Shown here: one piece after another, positions 136-10,314 of the stretch
Position numbering within the stretch: position 1 is the first letter of the stretch
Layout: each line of letters starts with the position of its first letter
Virus record (IMG/VR): IMGVR_UViG_2648501797_000006
Span: 1 to 24,757 of that record
DNA length: 24,757 bases
Origin: a virus
Taxonomy: Duplodnaviria; Heunggongvirae; Uroviricota; Caudoviricetes
Direction: 5' to 3' (one strand)
Made by a program: the position numbers and the translations under genes
Notes under the pieces: generated by a model
The model's input: the letters and a program-made list of their open reading frames with translations, nothing else
Told to the model about the DNA's origin: nothing
The model's database searches: none

Positions 136-295
136 ACTTTCCCCACCCAGCATGCATACCTTTATGCCATAACTGAAGTTTATGTCTGTTATGAGCGAGG
201 AGCGGAAGTCCGCAATTGTTCTTGCAACTAGGGCAGCTAAAAGACATGGCAGGCAAATGTCTACATGTAGGATACACCTGCTATCATAAAGAATC

Positions 296-1075
296 TTAGT
301 CCTGAAGCATTTTAACTTTCTTCTCATGCTTTTTATATTCGCCATTTATCCATTCAGGTTCTTCCCGAATAGCTGATCGCATACAGTGTGTTGGGATATC
401 ATTCCAGAAAGCTGTAATCGCATCTGCAAACTCTATAAACTGTGTTTCTGTAACCTCAAGTTGCTCATGACGTAGACTAAATCTATAGCCTCCTGGAATA
501 TTGATATCCTGATAATACTCAGGATGCGCGATGGAAAGCTCCCGATGGGCATGGCCATCACCGTGCTTATAAACATTGACTACTTGGCGACAGGCATCGA
601 TTTTTTCGTAATAAGCCTTGCCGGTGATATCCATCCCAACCCATTCTAGAATTTCAATTAGCCTTGGGAAGCCGATGTCCCAGATCATCGATGTTACGGG
701 TTTAGAGTCGAGCCAATGGCTGAATTCACGGATACACTTTTCTCGAAGTTCCTTATCGAACTGGTGAAACATTCCTGCTGTCAGAGCAAGTGAAACCGTA
801 TTTTTCATATCACTGAGGGCAATCCAATGTGAAATTCCTTCATCATGAGCCTGTTCCCAGATAGCCCCCTCGTCGTCATAATCGGGGTCAAAACGCTTAC
901 CGGCGGCCTCATAGTAATCTTTTTCTTTCTGCCGAGCTTCAGCTTCAAGATCAGAATCGCTAAACTGCGAAAATAAACGTTTTCTGGCTTCAGAAACATA
1001 AAAATTGTGTTTGTCGAGGAAGTAAGCCCGATCAATGGTTGCAAAATAAAAAAGTGAAAAATCTTTTTCGCTCAT
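296..1075 (-). CDS. Hypothetical protein, 259 aa, no family recognised (candidate prophage cargo)
   Basis: Track ORF 296..1153; likely start is the ATG at 1073..1075 (MSEKDFSLFYF...), preceded by AGGGAG. Stop TAA at 296..298. Contains HGDGHAHRELSIAH (an Rx5H spacing). Confidence 0.6.
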   Translation of the reverse strand: MSEKDFSLFYFATIDRAYFLDKHNFYVSEARKRLFSQFSDSDLEAEARQKEKDYYEAAGKRFDPDYDDEGAIWEQAHDEGISHWIALSDMKNTVSLALTAGMFHQFDKELREKCIREFSHWLDSKPVTSMIWDIGFPRLIEILEWVGMDITGKAYYEKIDACRQVVNVYKHGDGHAHRELSIAHPEYYQDINIPGGYRFSLRHEQLEVTETQFIEFADAITAFWNDIPTHCMRSAIREEPEWINGEYKKHEKKVKMLQD

Positions 1076-1451
1076 GGGGATCTCCCTCGTTTCGTCAGTT
1101 CTACAAGCCCTTGGAAGTAGGCTGCTAATAAAGAAAAGATTACATTTGAACAACTGTGCAAGATAGCAGTACGCCTAAAGGTAGTGCAAGTATCCCAACT
1201 AAGGTAACGATGCGTTTTCAAATATATAACTTAACGCTCGCGATATCCGCTTCTGGCACGAGGCGGACAGAACATGTGGACATGACGTCAGCTCTAAGCG
1301 AGGAGCTGATGCTAGCGGGGTAGGTTCAGTACAATCATAGGAGAGATCCAAAGTGTGCAGACACTGACTAAATTAAAGAAAATAGCATCTACGCTATATG
1401 GATATTAATAATGTCTATGACGAATATCATTATACGGGTAATGACTCCAAC

Positions 1452-1955
1452 TTATTGATAGTGTTTTATGTTCAGATAATGCCCGATGACTTTGTCATGC
1501 AGCTCCACCGATTTTGAAAACGACAGCGACTTCCGTCCCAGCCGTGCCAGGTGCTGCCTCAGATTCAGGTTATGCCGCTCAATTCGCTGCGTATATCGCT
1601 TGCTGATTACGTGCAGCTTTCCCTTCAGGCGGGATTCATACAGCGGCCAGCCATCCGTCATCCATATCACCACGTCAAAGGGTGACAGCAGGCTCATAAG
1701 ACGCCCCAGCGTCGCCATAGTGCGTTCACCGAATACGTGCGCAACAACCGTCTTCCGGAGCCTGTCATACGCGTAAAACAGCCAGCGCTGGCGCGATTTA
1801 GCCCCGACATAGCCCCACTGTTCGTCCATTTCCGCGCAGACGATGACGTCACTGCCCGGCTGTATGCGCGAGGTTACCGACTGCGGCCTGAGTTTTTTAA
1901 GTGACGTAAAATCGTGTTGAGGCCAACGCCCATAATGCGGGCTGTTGCCCGGCAT
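1452..1955 (-). CDS. insB: IS1 InsB frame (transposase made as an InsAB' fusion by -1 frameshifting)
   Basis: 167-aa frame overlapping the insA 3' end, sequence ...[27 protein letters not shown]... typical of IS1 InsB. Confidence 0.9.
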
Positions 1956-2149
1956 CCAACGCCATTCATGGCCATATCAATGATTTTCTGGTGCGTACCG
2001 GGTTGAGAAGCGGTGTAAGTGAACTGCAGTTGCCATGTTTTACGGCAGTGAGAGCAGAGATAGCGCTGATGTCCGGCGGTGCTTTTGCCGTTACGCACCA
2101 CCCCGTCAGTAGCTGAACAGGAGGGACAGCTGATAGAAACAGAAGCCAC
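1874..2149 (-). CDS. insA: IS1 InsA (91 aa)
   Basis: Translation [43 protein letters not shown]... matches IS1 InsA from memory. Confidence 0.9.
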
Positions 2150-2515
2150 TGGAGCACCTCAAAAAGACCATCATACACTAAATCAGTAAGTTGGCAGCAT
2201 CACCAATCAAACGATAGTTTGCAATGACAATATAAACGTTTTCAGTGAGTTAAGCAATACTAGGAAATTATGAGACAGATTACGTCGCCTCCACCATAAT
2301 GATTAACGAACCGTACTTTTTGCAAAGTCCGCATCTGGCACATAGCAGACCAGAGACACTGGCGTAAAGCCATGGAGGATCGGTGGGAGGAGGTAAAAAT
2401 CCTCTCATGCAAAAAATACGCAAAATCGATAACAGTTGGAAATCATTCAATACTCGCACTATCGGAAGTTCACCAGCCAGTCGTAGCACGTTCTTGCATA
2501 CGACGTGCTACGGTT

Positions 2516-2911
2516 TCATTTATCTCCGACCGGAAACCTCTTATACAAAGTCGATATGCCAATATCATAGATGATCGCCACCTTCTGGCGAGGAACTCCT
2601 GATGCAATTAATCGTCCGGCCTGTGCCCATTGTTCTGGTGTAAGTTTGGGACGTCGTCCACCAATTCGTCCCTGTGCGCGAGCAGCTTCCAGGCCAGCTT
2701 TTGTTCGTTCAACAATCAGTTCTCGTTCCATTTCAGCCAGGGCACCCATCACATGAAAGAAGAAGCGCCCCATAGGCGTACTCGTATCGATGCTATCCGT
2801 CAGGCTCCGGAAGTTAACACCTTTCTCCCGCAGTTCCTCCACTAACCCAACAAGATGTCGCATGCTGCGACCGAGGCGGTCACGCTTTCAGACCACCAGC
2901 GTATCGCCTTC
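2516..2911 (-). pseudogene. Pin/Hin/Gin-family serine DNA invertase remnant: N-terminally truncated with an in-frame nonsense codon
   Basis: Track ORF 2516..2863 gives ...RSLTDSIDTSTPMGRFFFHVMGALAEMERELIVERTKAGLEAARAQGRIGGRRPKLTPEQWAQAGRL..., an invertase C-terminal two-thirds. Reading upstream in frame gives EGDTLVV-stop-KRDRLGRSM: TGA at 2888..2890 (complement) replaces the conserved Trp of GDTLVVWKLDRLGRS. Similarity ends near 2911, so the catalytic-serine N-terminus is absent. Confidence 0.8.
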
Positions 2912-3026
2912 AGATATGCATCCTTGCTAAACTTAGATCGCCGGTCACCAACTAAGCATGCAGTATGCGTTATGTTTTTTATTGCTCCCAGGGTAATGTG
3001 TCCACTAACTAAACAAGGAGATAGTG

Positions 3027-3578
3027 ATGCTGCATACTATGAATTTCACGGTGCCCGTAAATCAGTCCACCGTTAACGCTTTAATTAGCAATTGCCTTGG
3101 AGCTATCAATCAGGGGGCGACTGAGTTAAACATTTACATTTCCAGTCCGGGCGGTGACCTCGTTGCAGGTTTTACTGCTTATCACTTTCTAAAGGCCCTA
3201 CCAATCCCAGTAAAGACCCATAACCTTAGCAATGTTGAATCAGTCGCTAATATCATTTTTCTTGCAGGGTCTGAACGTAAGGCGAATCCTGGGAGTCGGT
3301 TCTTACTGCATCCTTTTCACTGGGGCTTGATGGGCCCAAGCGTGGATCACTCACGCGTCAGTGAGTGGAGCGCGTGTCTCAATAATGACCTGGAGCGTTT
3401 TGTCGATATTTTGGAGAGTCAGATTGAGCTCAGTAAGAGCCGCAATGAGTGGAAGGAGGTTATCTCCGCCGCCACCATAGCCAATGCCTCTACAGCTCTG
3501 GATTGGGGGATGGTTCACGAGGTTGCCGCCGCCACTTACCCGCAGGCACCCGGCACATACTGGTGGATTAACTGTTAA
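3027..3578 (+). CDS. ClpP-fold (peptidase S14-like) serine peptidase-like protein, 183 aa
   Basis: AAGGAG at 3015..3020, 6 nt before ATG 3027. ...ELNIYISSPGGDLVAGFTAYHFL...SNVESVANIIFLAGSERKANPGSRFLLHPFHWG parallels ClpP ...YINSPGGVITAGMSIYDTM...GQAASMGAFLL...RVMIHQPLGG, with Ser and His at the corresponding positions. Assignment from recalled motifs only. Confidence 0.55.
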   Translation: MLHTMNFTVPVNQSTVNALISNCLGAINQGATELNIYISSPGGDLVAGFTAYHFLKALPIPVKTHNLSNVESVANIIFLAGSERKANPGSRFLLHPFHWGLMGPSVDHSRVSEWSACLNNDLERFVDILESQIELSKSRNEWKEVISAATIANASTALDWGMVHEVAAATYPQAPGTYWWINC

Positions 3579-8858: not shown

Positions 8859-9185
8859 TTACTCCTTCGAGCTACCAAACTTGTTACCGATTACTCTCAT
8901 TGCCGCACCACGAATAGCATCGACCCCGATCAGCCCCACCCCACCACCAATAGCAACAGAAAGTGATTTAGGCCATCCGACATACTCAAGCGCGGATGCA
9001 AAGGTCAGTGTCAGAGCGCCACAGAGCAAAATCTCGAGCGTTTTTCGCTTCCAGCCGCCACCGCCACCAAAATAGGCAATACGTAAACCAGCCATAACGA
9101 TCGACATAATTACTGCGCCCAGTGGTGTGTCTCCACGCCACCAGCTCTGTACCAACTCCAGCCAGGTATTTGGGTTATGAGGCAT
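8859..9185 (-). CDS. Putative holin (three predicted TM segments)
   Basis: Immediately upstream of R; likely start at complement 9183..9185 (MPHNPNTW...) after GAGGTGAG; three hydrophobic segments. Not lambda S by sequence. Confidence 0.55.
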   Translation of the reverse strand: MPHNPNTWLELVQSWWRGDTPLGAVIMSIVMAGLRIAYFGGGGGWKRKTLEILLCGALTLTFASALEYVGWPKSLSVAIGGGVGLIGVDAIRGAAMRVIGNKFGSSKE

Positions 9186-9228
9186 TTCGTCATCTCTCAC
9201 CTCGCGATATTTGCGGGTGCTGTGTTGG

Positions 9229-9254
9229 AAATAAAAAGGCCACGCAACGTGGCC
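9229..9254 (-). terminator. Rho-independent terminator between the methyltransferase and holin genes
   Basis: Perfect stem GGCCACG-caa-CGTGGCC (9238..9254) followed on the minus strand by TTTTTATTT (complement of 9229..9237). Confidence 0.6.
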
Positions 9255-9261
9255 ACCAGAA

Positions 9262-10314
9262 TTATTTCCCCACCAGTTCACTTACCTCTTTCACCGTCTG
9301 ATTAAACCGCTCTGACTCAAGTTCAACACCTAACGCCCGACGCCCCAGCGCCATTGCTGCTTTTATTGTGGAACCGGATCCCATAAAGAAATCAGCAACC
9401 AGATCACCAGGTCGACTACTGGCATTGATTATTTGCCGGAGCATATCCGCCGGTTTCTCGCACGGATGTTTACCCGGGTAGAACTGAACGGGCTTATGCG
9501 TCCAGACATCGGTATAAGGCACAGAGACTGATACGGAGAAATAGCGCCGGAGAGATTTAAACTCATCCAGCAATTCAGAATATTTGCGATTCAGTGAATC
9601 ATAAGATGCCACCAGCTGGTGGTGTGGTTGTTCCAGTTGTTGTTCCTGAAACTTCTCTGCCGCTATACGGGAAAACAGTGCCTGTAACTTCCGATAGTCA
9701 GCCTCATTCGGCAACTGCCACTGACTGGCACCAAACCAGTGGGAAACCATATTTTTCTTATCTGTGGCTTCGGCAATTTGTTTTGCCGTTATACCCAGTT
9801 CGGCACGAGCATCCCTGAAATACGATATCAGCGGTGCCATTATGTGCTGTTTGAGTTCCCTTTCTTTTGCCGCATAGTCGTCACTTTTGCCGCGATATGG
9901 CCCCTGGTAATGTTCAGCAAACAGAACGCGCTCTGTGGCAGGAAAATATGCGCGCAGACTTTCTTTATTACACCCATTCCAACGTCCGGACGGCTTCGCC
10001 CAGATGATATGGTTAAGCACGTTGAAACGTTCACGCATCATGATCTCAATATCAGATGCCAGGCGATGCCCACAGAACAGGTAAAGGCTTCCGGCAGGTT
10101 TTAACACCCGCCAGAACTGGGCCAGACAGTGGTCCAGCCACTTAAGGTAATCTTCGTCCCCTTTCCACTGATTGTCCCAACCGTTAGGTTTCACTTTGAA
10201 GTAAGGCGGATCGGTAACAATCAGGTCAATGGAATCATCAGGCAGGGACTGAATAAAATGCAGGCAATCAGCGTTGATTAAATCAACACTGTTTATTTTT
10301 ACAGTATTTTTCAT
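9262..10314 (-). CDS. Orphan DNA methyltransferase (DPPY motif, beta-class N6-adenine or N4-cytosine)
   Basis: IVTDPPYF near the N-terminus and SAM-binding FFMGSGST near the C-terminus (motif IV before motif I). No partner endonuclease recognised nearby. Confidence 0.85.
   Translation of the reverse strand: MKNTVKINSVDLINADCLHFIQSLPDDSIDLIVTDPPYFKVKPNGWDNQWKGDEDYLKWLDHCLAQFWRVLKPAGSLYLFCGHRLASDIEIMMRERFNVLNHIIWAKPSGRWNGCNKESLRAYFPATERVLFAEHYQGPYRGKSDDYAAKERELKQHIMAPLISYFRDARAELGITAKQIAEATDKKNMVSHWFGASQWQLPNEADYRKLQALFSRIAAEKFQEQQLEQPHHQLVASYDSLNRKYSELLDEFKSLRRYFSVSVSVPYTDVWTHKPVQFYPGKHPCEKPADMLRQIINASSRPGDLVADFFMGSGSTIKAAMALGRRALGVELESERFNQTVKEVSELVGK

What the first reader, a model, noticed from the sequence alone, without database searches (positions are those of the whole stretch)
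296..1075. Unrecognised 259-aa protein at the prophage edge, beyond the invertase and IS1
The layout (tail-fibre fragment, tfa, invertase, then an unrelated gene) mirrors the e14 end where the restriction gene mcrA follows pin. This ORF occupies that slot but is not McrA by sequence. It has an Rx5H spacing (RELSIAH) that fits the HEPN Rx4-6H pattern, which is weak evidence on its own.
Basis: partly seen in the sequence, partly recalled or inferred. Interest (0 to 1): 0.65.

Follow-up and report, generated by a model that had tools for sequence, protein, structure and literature searches.

The report
Solo HEPN-like prophage cargo gene

Summary
The ORF (window 296-1075, minus strand, 259 aa) is real. 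It has a good ribosome-binding site, dN/dS of 0.25 between two E. coli alleles, and about 1,400 homologue clusters.

It matches nothing in Pfam, NCBIfam or PADLOC. Its only hit is PHROG 19541, which has no known function.

R178 is kept in 4 of 41 diverse homologues and H184 in 6 of 41, and 86% of shuffled sequences contain an Rx4-6H match.

The invariant residues are N167, K170, H171 and G174 (V-N-V-Y-K-H-G-x-G). They sit at the end of the helix where HEPN domains carry Rx4-6H, but with valine in place of arginine. D/E107-K108-x-x-R111 on the preceding long helix is also conserved.

In about half of the 80 genome loci inspected (of 156 positive stretches found), the homologue overlaps by 4 nt both an MmeI-like methyltransferase (YeeA/DnmA type) and the next gene of a YeeB helicase/YeeC nuclease operon. 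In Enterobacterales it is a 1.07-kb single-gene cassette on prophages and plasmids.

Best reading: a latent HEPN-type abortive-infection RNase, like HepS, Tha or PrrC. This is untested. I rate it a new variant of a known kind, of moderate interest.

The parts
296..1075 (-). CDS of the 259-aa protein (called T here); WP_025269809.1, annotated 'hypothetical protein'
   Evidence: ORF and translation. RefSeq annotation. Homologues. AF2 model with pLDDT 92.7.
1082..1088 (-). Shine-Dalgarno sequence GAGGGAG, 6 nt before the ATG
   Evidence: Read directly from the sequence. Conserved in the E24377A allele.
1076..1258 (-). 183-nt upstream region that travels with the gene; presumed own promoter/5' UTR
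   Evidence: Homology between the ST540 and E24377A copies stops at window 1258. The consensus promoter scan found no strong sigma-70 site here, so the promoter is inferred, not shown.
192..295 (-). 104-nt downstream region that belongs to the same mobile cassette
   Evidence: The cassette boundary at window 192 comes from blastn of ST540 against E24377A.
554..580 (-). Codons for V166-N-V-Y-K-H-G-D-G174, the family's invariant motif, at the C-terminal end of helix 154-171
   Evidence: N167, K170, H171 and G174 are invariant in 43 close and 41 diverse homologues. Helix limits come from the AF2 model. The position matches where HEPN domains carry Rx4-6H (PMC3710099).
743..766 (-). Codons for H104-Q-F-D-K-E-L-R111, the conserved patch on the long helix 69-118
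   Evidence: D/E107 is 100% acidic. K108 and R111 are at least 93% conserved. H104 is kept in 36/41.
524..544 (-).
   Evidence: R178 is kept in 4/41 and H184 in 6/41 of alignment A3. The pattern is at chance level.
1405..1436 (-). Last ~10 codons plus stop of an unrelated 306-aa predicted membrane protein gene, truncated by IS1
   Evidence: Alignment with E. coli CFE299, where the gene is intact.
1437..2204 (-). IS1A element. It replaced 973 bp present in CFE299, and there is no target-site duplication.

Best explanation
T is a self-contained, horizontally mobile single-gene cassette (window 192-1258). It encodes a member of a large, unnamed, all-alpha protein family with a HEPN-type four-helix core.

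Its conserved polar residues cluster where HEPN RNases have their active site:
- phi-N167-x-x-K170-H171-G-x-G at the end of core helix 3
- D/E107-K108-x-x-R111 on core helix 2

The canonical arginine is replaced by valine.

I propose that T is a latent, metal-independent endoribonuclease. It would act as an abortive-infection or second-line immune effector. It is made constitutively in the lysogen and stays inactive (there is no antitoxin gene). A phage cue switches it on, and it then cuts tRNA, rRNA or mRNA to stop phage growth.

In most Proteobacteria the gene is translationally coupled inside YeeA(DnmA)-YeeB-YeeC restriction-like operons. That parallels the anticodon nuclease PrrC inside EcoprrI. 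In Enterobacterales it has escaped as a solo moron on prophages and plasmids, as HepS and Tha have.

Shown here: the gene is real and under selection; the fold resemblance; the conserved residues; the genomic contexts.

Inferred: RNase chemistry; the defence role; latency and the trigger.

For: **Topology.** It matches the published HEPN description (PMC3710099). [quoted passage not shown] In T these correspond to:
- helix 154-171, ending in VNVYKHG-x-G
- D107 in helix 69-118
- two short helices at 124-145

The same paper lists HEPN families that lack R but keep H.

**Conservation.** N167, K170, H171 and G174 are invariant. D/E107, K108 and R111 are nearly so across homologues down to ~22% identity.

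**Context in other Proteobacteria.**
- 43 of 89 loci have an MmeI-like type IIG enzyme directly upstream.
- The DEAD/ResIII helicase lies at +1, +2 or +3 in 22, 16 and 3 cases. A T5orf172 gene lies downstream in 25 loci.
- In most of these loci the homologue overlaps both of its neighbours by 4 nt.
- Abi_2/PD-T4-5 or RhuM/PDC-S05 genes are inserted at the same junction in some loci.

**Context in Enterobacterales.**
- It is prophage accessory cargo beside LEM-3-like GIY-YIG and HNH genes in E24377A.
- It follows the J tail-tip gene and sits next to a RES toxin in a Proteus-type provirus.
- A distant clade sits next to Abi_2 and PBECR1 genes in 13 proviruses.
- 131 plasmids carry a homologue.

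**Mobility and selection.** The cassette moves alone. dN/dS is 0.245.

**Precedents.** HepS is a solo prophage HEPN anticodon nuclease with no partner that is inactive by default (PMC13043305). HEC-08 is a HEPN protein embedded in Hma systems.
Against: - The defining arginine of Rx4-6H is absent from the whole family: position 166 is V in 40/41.
- No sequence method links T to any HEPN family. Pfam finds nothing for T or for 41 members. The PDB profile search has no hit at E<=10. hhalign against Abi_2 gives probability 1%.
- Foldseek found nothing in PDB or BFVD.
- PADLOC-DB v2 has no model for it.
- tblastn found no copy in 50,697 deposited phage genomes.
- There is no experimental evidence of toxicity, RNA cleavage or defence.
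- The B. subtilis YeeABC cluster showed no anti-phage effect (PMC9973331).
- The tight 4-nt coupling in YeeABC operons could mean that T is a structural subunit rather than an independent effector.
Confidence: 0.45

Rival explanations
1. T is a non-catalytic HEPN-like adaptor, sensor or nucleotide-binding subunit of YeeA-YeeB-YeeC restriction complexes. The solo copies on plasmids and prophages would then act as decoys or inhibitors of such complexes (anti-restriction), or as regulators, rather than as nucleases.
For: - T overlaps both operon neighbours by 4 nt in most of the ~45 YeeABC-type loci examined, which is typical of stoichiometric subunits.
- The canonical catalytic arginine is missing.
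- One homologue (P0014, 59% identity) lies in a Pantoea plasmid leading region between psiB/parB and ardA/klcA anti-restriction genes.
Against: - Invariant N, K and H residues plus an acidic/K/R patch look like an active site. The 2013 survey (PMC3710099) expects inactive HEPN domains to lack conserved polar residues.
- In the Pantoea plasmid the gene is on the strand opposite to all the leading-region genes.
- B. subtilis YeeABC has no T, so T is optional.
- Other accessory defence genes (Abi_2, RhuM) are inserted at the same junction, which makes it look like an embedding hotspot.
Confidence: 0.2
2. T is a selfish toxin or addiction-type gene that stabilises the mobile elements carrying it, with no role in phage defence.
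For: - It is found on 131 plasmids and many prophages as a lone gene.
- The best fold match is a TA-system toxin, HepT.
Against: - No conserved adjacent antitoxin exists. Upstream neighbours differ between loci. The shared cassette holds only T plus 183 nt upstream with no credible small ORF.
- A constitutively toxic solo gene could not be maintained.
- The embedded position in R-M-like operons fits immunity better.
Confidence: 0.1
3. In this particular window the gene is a silent relic. The IS1-mediated deletion and the prophage decay have left an intact but unexpressed ORF.
For: - IS1 removed 973 bp just upstream, including the neighbouring gene.
- The surrounding prophage is heavily deleted.
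- The scan found no strong sigma-70 consensus promoter in 1076-1258.
- A truncated remnant of the gene (P0093) exists in hundreds of E. coli assemblies, so the cassette does decay.
Against: - The ORF and its 183-nt upstream region are intact and 100% identical in at least 7 complete genomes, including CFE299, which has no IS1.
- The same upstream region accompanies the gene in E24377A-type prophages.
- dN/dS is 0.245.
- The IS1 end is 361 nt from the start codon, outside the conserved cassette.
Confidence: 0.1
4. One reading: a canonical HEPN nuclease whose catalytic Rx4-6H motif is R178-ELSIA-H184.
For: The string matches the pattern. The fold is HEPN-like.
Against: - R178 and H184 are not conserved: 4/41 and 6/41.
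- 86% of shuffles contain such a match.
- The string lies on the short helix after the true conserved motif.
Confidence: 0.02

Closest known systems
HepS (STM14_3211) of Salmonella prophage Gifsy-1: solo HEPN abortive-infection anticodon nuclease (Sargen et al., Nature 2026, PMC13043305)
   Same: - It is a single small all-alpha HEPN-fold protein.
- It has no partner or antitoxin.
- It is carried as an accessory gene of lambdoid prophages. The E24377A allele of T sits in the same replication-to-Q accessory region.
   Different: - HepS has a canonical R100-x4-H105 motif, whereas T has V-N-x-x-K-H with no arginine.
- There is no detectable sequence similarity.
- T is also an operon component of YeeABC systems.
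- T's activity, oligomeric state and trigger are unknown.
PrrC / RloC anticodon nucleases linked to type I R-M systems, and the R-M-embedded HEPN genes catalogued by Anantharaman et al. 2013 (PMC3710099)
   Same: It is a putative RNase gene nested inside a restriction-modification-type operon, suggesting a second line of defence that fires when restriction is blocked.
   Different: - PrrC and RloC carry an N-terminal ABC-ATPase domain. T has no ATPase.
- The host operon is the MmeI-like YeeA/YeeB/YeeC type, not type I.
- The enterobacterial T copies have no R-M partner at all.
Abi_2 family (AbiD/AbiF, PD-T4-5), PF07751
   Same: It is a HEPN-superfamily solo Abi protein of similar size. It is found inserted at the very same YeeA-YeeB junction (8 loci) and next to a distant T homologue in proviruses.
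   Different: - Abi_2 has the canonical R-N-x-x-A-H-H motif.
- T gives no Pfam or PADLOC hit to it.
- hhalign probability is 1%.
HepT (DUF86) toxins of HEPN-MNT toxin-antitoxin systems, e.g. SO_3166 (PDB 5YEP)
   Different: - HepT is ~130 aa with an Rx4HxY motif, and a cognate MNT antitoxin neutralises it by AMPylation.
- T is twice as long, has no MNT neighbour and lacks the arginine.
YeeA(DnmA)-YeeB-YeeC clusters (Morgan et al. 2009, PMC2731913; Fernandez et al. 2023, PMC9973331)
   Same: This is the operon in which about half of the T homologues examined reside. The 2023 paper noted an 'uncharacterized protein family' in these neighbourhoods.
   Different: - T is not one of the three defining genes, and it is absent from the B. 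subtilis prototype.
- The window's copy has no such operon nearby.

Membership tests
HEPN superfamily | Four-helix up-and-down bundle, often with an insert between helices 2 and 3 | tested here: met
HEPN superfamily | [quoted passage not shown] | tested here: not met
At that position the family has V166-N-V-Y-K-H171-G. The H and the polar N are invariant, but the R position is V in 40/41. R-less HEPN families are documented, so this lowers the membership claim rather than excluding it.
HEPN superfamily | Conserved acidic residue in helix 2 near the motif | tested here: inconclusive
HEPN superfamily | Dimerisation that brings two motifs together into a composite active site; metal-independent RNA cleavage | not testable with these tools
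   This needs multimer modelling or biochemistry.
HEPN superfamily | Detectable sequence or profile relationship to an established HEPN family | tested here: not met
   - No Pfam, NCBIfam or PADLOC hit.
- No recurrent weak Pfam hit among 41 members.
- No PDB profile hit at E<=10.
- hhalign against Abi_2 gives probability 1%.
McrA (e14 restriction endonuclease) | HNH nuclease domain with an N-terminal 5mC-binding domain | tested here: not met
   There is no HNH or other Pfam domain. The fold is all-alpha.
HepS family | Sequence homology to STM14_3211 with a canonical R100-x4-H105 motif, under 250 aa | tested here: not met
   The PDB sequence/profile search returned nothing. T lacks the arginine and is 259 aa. 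Whether the HepS chain is in that PDB copy was not verified.
PrrC/RloC anticodon nucleases | N-terminal ABC-type ATPase domain fused to the nuclease domain | tested here: not met
   There is no ATPase domain or P-loop, and the protein is a 259-aa helical protein.
YeeA-YeeB-YeeC (DnmA) system component | Encoded within an operon with an MmeI-like methyltransferase, an SF2 helicase and a T5orf172/GIY-YIG protein | tested here: not met
   This is true for 43 of 89 homologue loci. It is not true for the window's copy or for any enterobacterial copy examined.
PHROG 19541 | Full-length HMM match | tested here: met
   E = 5.4e-121, covering residues 7-253 against profile positions 1-246 of 246. The PHROG has no functional annotation.

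The most novel reading that the evidence does not exclude
T may define a new, arginine-less branch of HEPN-like nucleases (motif phi-N-x-x-K-H-G-x-G plus D/E-K-x-x-R). In its ancestral setting it would be an integral fourth subunit of YeeA-YeeB-YeeC restriction systems. It would couple methylation-based DNA discrimination to RNA cleavage or to a signalling step. It would then have repeatedly escaped to become an autonomous phage sensor-effector on enterobacterial prophages and plasmids.
Probability: 0.25. Interest if true: 0.7.

Novelty: new variant of a known kind. Interest (0 to 1): 0.5.

Why it matters
If the reading is right, three things follow.

First, it adds a sizeable unannotated family to the bacterial immune repertoire. 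The family has about 1,400 clusters at 50% identity, was found in 156 stretches of a one-genome-per-species collection, and occurs on 131 sequenced plasmids, many of them from Citrobacter, Klebsiella and Enterobacter. No current defence-finder model detects it.

Second, it would show that HEPN-type chemistry can run on an N/K/H site without the 'defining' arginine. That would widen motif-based searches for such nucleases.

Third, it gives a handle on the poorly understood YeeA-YeeB-YeeC (DnmA) systems. Their anti-phage role has been contradictory between species, and a previously overlooked fourth gene may be part of the explanation.

If the reading is wrong and T is a non-catalytic adaptor or decoy, the solo copies on plasmids would be candidates for a new anti-restriction strategy.

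Tried and rejected
- **Sequence libraries.** Pfam, NCBIfam and PADLOC scans of T gave nothing. A Pfam scan of 41 diverse members showed no recurrent family. The PDB profile search gave nothing at E<=10.
- **Foldseek.** Searches against PDB and BFVD found no match at E<=0.001. The AFDB libraries were not available.
- **hhalign.** The family profile against an Abi_2 alignment built from neighbouring genes gave probability 1%.
- **Two-gene system with the 306-aa upstream gene seen in CFE299.** Rejected. That gene has no Pfam or PADLOC hit. It is unrelated to the upstream gene in Accumulibacter. It is absent from the other allele's context, and it lies outside the shared cassette.
- **Domain fusions.** The longer homologues are one-off chimeras, for example the T N-terminus joined to a YeeC C-terminus or to DUF2971. 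They are not informative architectures.
- **Other Rx4-6H matches.** R16-H23 is only semi-conserved, with both residues present in 23/41. R198-H203 is not conserved.
- **tblastn against 50,697 deposited phage genomes.** No hit.
- **Literature search** for the accessions and the PHROG id found nothing.
- **tRNA scan** of the left flank found none.

Full report
**1. The observation**

The minus strand of window 296-1075 carries a 259-codon ORF, with ATG at 1075 and TAA at 298-296. A GAGGGAG ribosome-binding site sits six bases upstream.

The window is identical to the chromosome of E. coli ST540. RefSeq annotates the same CDS there as a hypothetical protein, WP_025269809.1.

To the right of the gene lie IS1A (element at 1437-2204) and a truncated pin-like recombinase pseudogene. 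Beyond these are a ClpP-like gene, tail-fibre-assembly fragments and a strongly deleted lambdoid prophage. That prophage keeps terminase, lysis genes, iss, a methyltransferase and Q.

To the left, beyond window position 1, lie a LysR (yagP-like) fragment and paoDCBA.

**2. A real gene under selection**

The gene is rare in E. coli: 16-18 of 5,426 complete genomes carry it. There are two alleles.
- The first is the ST540/CFE299 allele at the pao/yagP site.
- The second is 94.6% identical at the DNA level. In E24377A, SE11 and other strains it sits in the accessory region of a different lambdoid prophage, between the early genes and DUF1367/Q. A LEM-3-like GIY-YIG gene and an HNH gene are nearby.

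Between the two alleles dN/dS is 0.245. The sequence they share is only window 192-1258: the gene, 183 nt upstream and 104 nt downstream. The unit of transfer is thus a 1.07-kb single-gene cassette.

In strain CFE299 the IS1 is absent and a 306-aa predicted membrane protein gene lies 330 nt upstream. In the window IS1 has replaced 973 bp, leaving only that gene's last ~10 codons (1405-1436), and there is no target-site duplication. That neighbour lies outside the shared cassette and is unrelated to the neighbours found elsewhere. I do not consider it a partner.

**3. Family**

Pfam, NCBIfam and PADLOC give no hit. PHROG 19541, of unknown function, matches full-length at E = 5e-121.
- A word-seeded search found 93 clusters.
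- An exhaustive profile search found 1,419 clusters at E<=1e-3 and 799 at E<=1e-10.
- A scan of one genome per species found 156 positive stretches, nearly all Pseudomonadota.
- 131 plasmids carry a homologue, as do 39 IMG/VR provirus contigs.
- None of 50,697 deposited phage genomes does.

**4.

In an alignment of 43 homologues (30-85% identity), R178 is kept in 14 and H184 in 14. In 41 more diverse members (22-58% identity), the counts are 4 and 6.

The protein has three Rx4-6H matches, and 86% of shuffles have at least one.

The conserved features are:
- N167, K170, H171 and G174 are invariant in both alignments, within V-N-V-Y-K-H-G-x-G.
- F223 and W224 are also invariant in both alignments.
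- Position 107 is always acidic.
- K108 and R111 are at least 93% conserved.
- Position 166, where a HEPN arginine would sit, is V in 40 of 41.

**5. Structure**

AlphaFold2 run on the 43-sequence alignment gives pLDDT 92.7 and pTM 0.87, and the protein is all-alpha. Foldseek finds nothing significant in PDB or BFVD.

The 2013 survey of the superfamily (PMC3710099) makes three points. [quoted passage not shown] A conserved acidic residue, when present, is in helix 2. Inserts between helices 2 and 3 are characteristic.

T fits this plan:
- The long helix 69-118 carries D107-K108-x-x-R111.
- Two short helices (124-145) form the insert.
- Helix 154-171 ends in V-N-V-Y-K-H, followed by a G-x-G turn.

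The same survey lists families that lack the R but keep the H, and it argues that alternative active-site residues can be used. I could not inspect the residue-level superposition, so the equivalence of H171 to the catalytic histidine is an inference from topology.

No sequence-based method connects T to a HEPN family.

**6. Context elsewhere**

I clustered the neighbours of 89 homologue loci.
- In 43 loci an MmeI-like type IIG enzyme of about 925 aa lies directly upstream on the same strand. It has the MmeI_N, helicase-spacer, MTase, TRD and C-terminal domains, and matches PADLOC REase_MTase_IIG at E = 8e-277.
- A DEAD/ResIII helicase of about 686 aa follows T, at position +1, +2 or +3 in 22, 16 and 3 cases.
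- A T5orf172/MUG113 protein of about 402 aa follows the helicase in 25 loci.
- In most of these loci the T homologue overlaps both of its neighbours by 4 nt.

This is the YeeA(DnmA)-YeeB-YeeC arrangement. Morgan et al. proposed it as a three-subunit restriction system (PMC2731913). It is reported to be inactive against phages in B. subtilis but protective in Vibrio crassostreae (PMC9973331). That paper also mentions an uncharacterised family in these neighbourhoods.

In some loci an Abi_2/PD-T4-5 gene (8 loci) or a RhuM/PDC-S05 gene (6 loci) is inserted between T and the helicase. The junction therefore also behaves as a hotspot for embedded accessory defence genes.

The enterobacterial clade (47-93% identity to T) is never in such an operon. 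Its members are found in the following places:
- at prophage ends or accessory regions
- after the J tail-tip gene next to a RES/HEPN_RES_NTD1 toxin in a Proteus-type provirus
- in a Pantoea plasmid leading region between psiB/parB and ardA/klcA, but on the opposite strand
- on IncFIB, IncC-like and Col-type plasmids among IS elements

A distant clade (26% identity) in 13 proviruses is followed directly by an Abi_2 gene and a PBECR1 nuclease gene.

**7. Mechanism**

The best-supported reading is a latent HEPN-type endoribonuclease that serves as an abortive-infection or second-line effector.

The shown steps are the fold resemblance, an active-site-like invariant patch at the expected place, the absence of any antitoxin, mobility as a solo cassette, purifying selection, and consistent association with restriction-like operons and Abi/toxin cargo.

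The inferred steps are RNA cleavage, activation by a phage cue, and protection of the lysogen.

The precedents are close.
- HepS of Gifsy-1 is a solo HEPN protein with no partner. It is inactive by default, is triggered by tail-tip proteins and cuts tRNA anticodon loops.
- Tha of S. aureus prophages is a tail-activated HEPN system.
- HEC-08 is a HEPN protein embedded in Hma systems.
- PrrC is nested in EcoprrI (my own knowledge, and cited).

I put this reading at 0.45.

The main rival (0.2) is that T is a non-catalytic adaptor or sensor subunit of YeeABC, with the solo copies acting as decoys or regulators. The 4-nt coupling and the missing arginine favour it. The invariant polar residues and the optional nature of T argue against it.

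An addiction-toxin reading and a 'silent relic in this strain' reading each get about 0.1.

**8. Comparison and novelty**

T works most like HepS or Abi_2-type solo HEPN defences, and like PrrC in its embedded form. It is not a demonstrable member of any named family.
- It fails the Rx4-6H test.
- It has no profile similarity to any HEPN family.
- It is not McrA, HepS or PrrC.
- The window's copy is not part of a YeeABC operon.

It is best described as an unnamed HEPN-like family with a non-canonical phi-N-x-x-K-H-G-x-G motif, which makes it a new variant of a known kind.

A specialist would find it a credible, testable candidate rather than a surprise. The links to the unresolved YeeABC systems and to clinically relevant plasmids add some value. 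Interest: 0.5.

Noticed in passing
window 1405-1436 (-); intact copy at L002:11405-12325 (-): This is the remnant (last ~10 codons plus stop) of a 306-aa hypothetical protein with two predicted transmembrane helices (WP_097452624.1). IS1 removed the rest together with 973 bp. The protein has no Pfam or PADLOC hit.
   Followed up: partly
window 1437-2204: The flanks of the IS1A element (cattatacg / aatcaaacg) show no target-site duplication. This is consistent with an IS1-mediated adjacent deletion rather than a simple insertion.
   Followed up: partly
window 3027-3578 (+): A 184-aa ClpP-like protease gene, annotated as 'ATP-dependent Clp protease proteolytic subunit', sits between the truncated pin-like invertase (2516-2917) and the tail-fibre-assembly fragments. 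That is an unusual place for such a gene. It may be another cargo gene.
   Followed up: no
L096-L098:6001-6444; also partial hits H37/H38 matching window 250-484: A 147-aa chimeric ORF (P0093) carries the last ~65 residues of T at about 97% identity, fused to unrelated sequence. It lies in CP4-type islands (YagK/YfjJ, AlpA neighbours) and is on record in hundreds of E. coli assemblies. The T cassette has therefore decayed repeatedly.
   Followed up: partly
rows H11-H17 (other E. coli chromosomes aligned to window 1436-2916): In other strains, mcrA or a LEM-3-like GIY-YIG gene is annotated beside IS1 and the pin-type invertase. This suggests a variable cargo hotspot at this prophage end. The LEM-3-like gene is also a neighbour of T in E24377A-type prophages.
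   Followed up: partly
L031, L036, L040-L042, L048, L058, L061 (Abi_2); L047, L052, L060, L068, L071 (RhuM): The YeeA-YeeB junction in alpha- and gammaproteobacterial operons also hosts Abi_2/PD-T4-5 or RhuM/PDC-S05 genes, placed directly after the T homologue and again with 4-nt overlaps. This looks like an embedding hotspot inside a restriction-like operon.
   Followed up: partly
L003:8001-8780 (Pantoea ananatis plasmid CP022431): A 59%-identical homologue lies in a conjugative-plasmid leading region between DUF905/parB/psiB/psiA and ardA/DUF1380/klcA. It is on the strand opposite to all of those genes.
   Followed up: no
L007/L008:6947-7906 and 8939-9997 (Candidatus Accumulibacter): Here the T homologue is flanked on the same strand by two unannotated proteins of 319 and 352-365 aa. 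The first gives a weak PADLOC PDC-S42 hit (E = 1e-4). The block sits in an island with a CHAT-domain protein and recombinases, and may be a different multi-gene arrangement.
   Followed up: no
window 1027-1006 region (residues R16-H23 of T): A second, semi-conserved R-x6-H pair lies at the start of helix 1. R16 is kept in 35/41, H23 in 29/41, and both together in 23/41. R33 on the same helix is also largely conserved. One of these could supply the 'missing' arginine to the active site. This could not be checked without model coordinates.
   Followed up: partly
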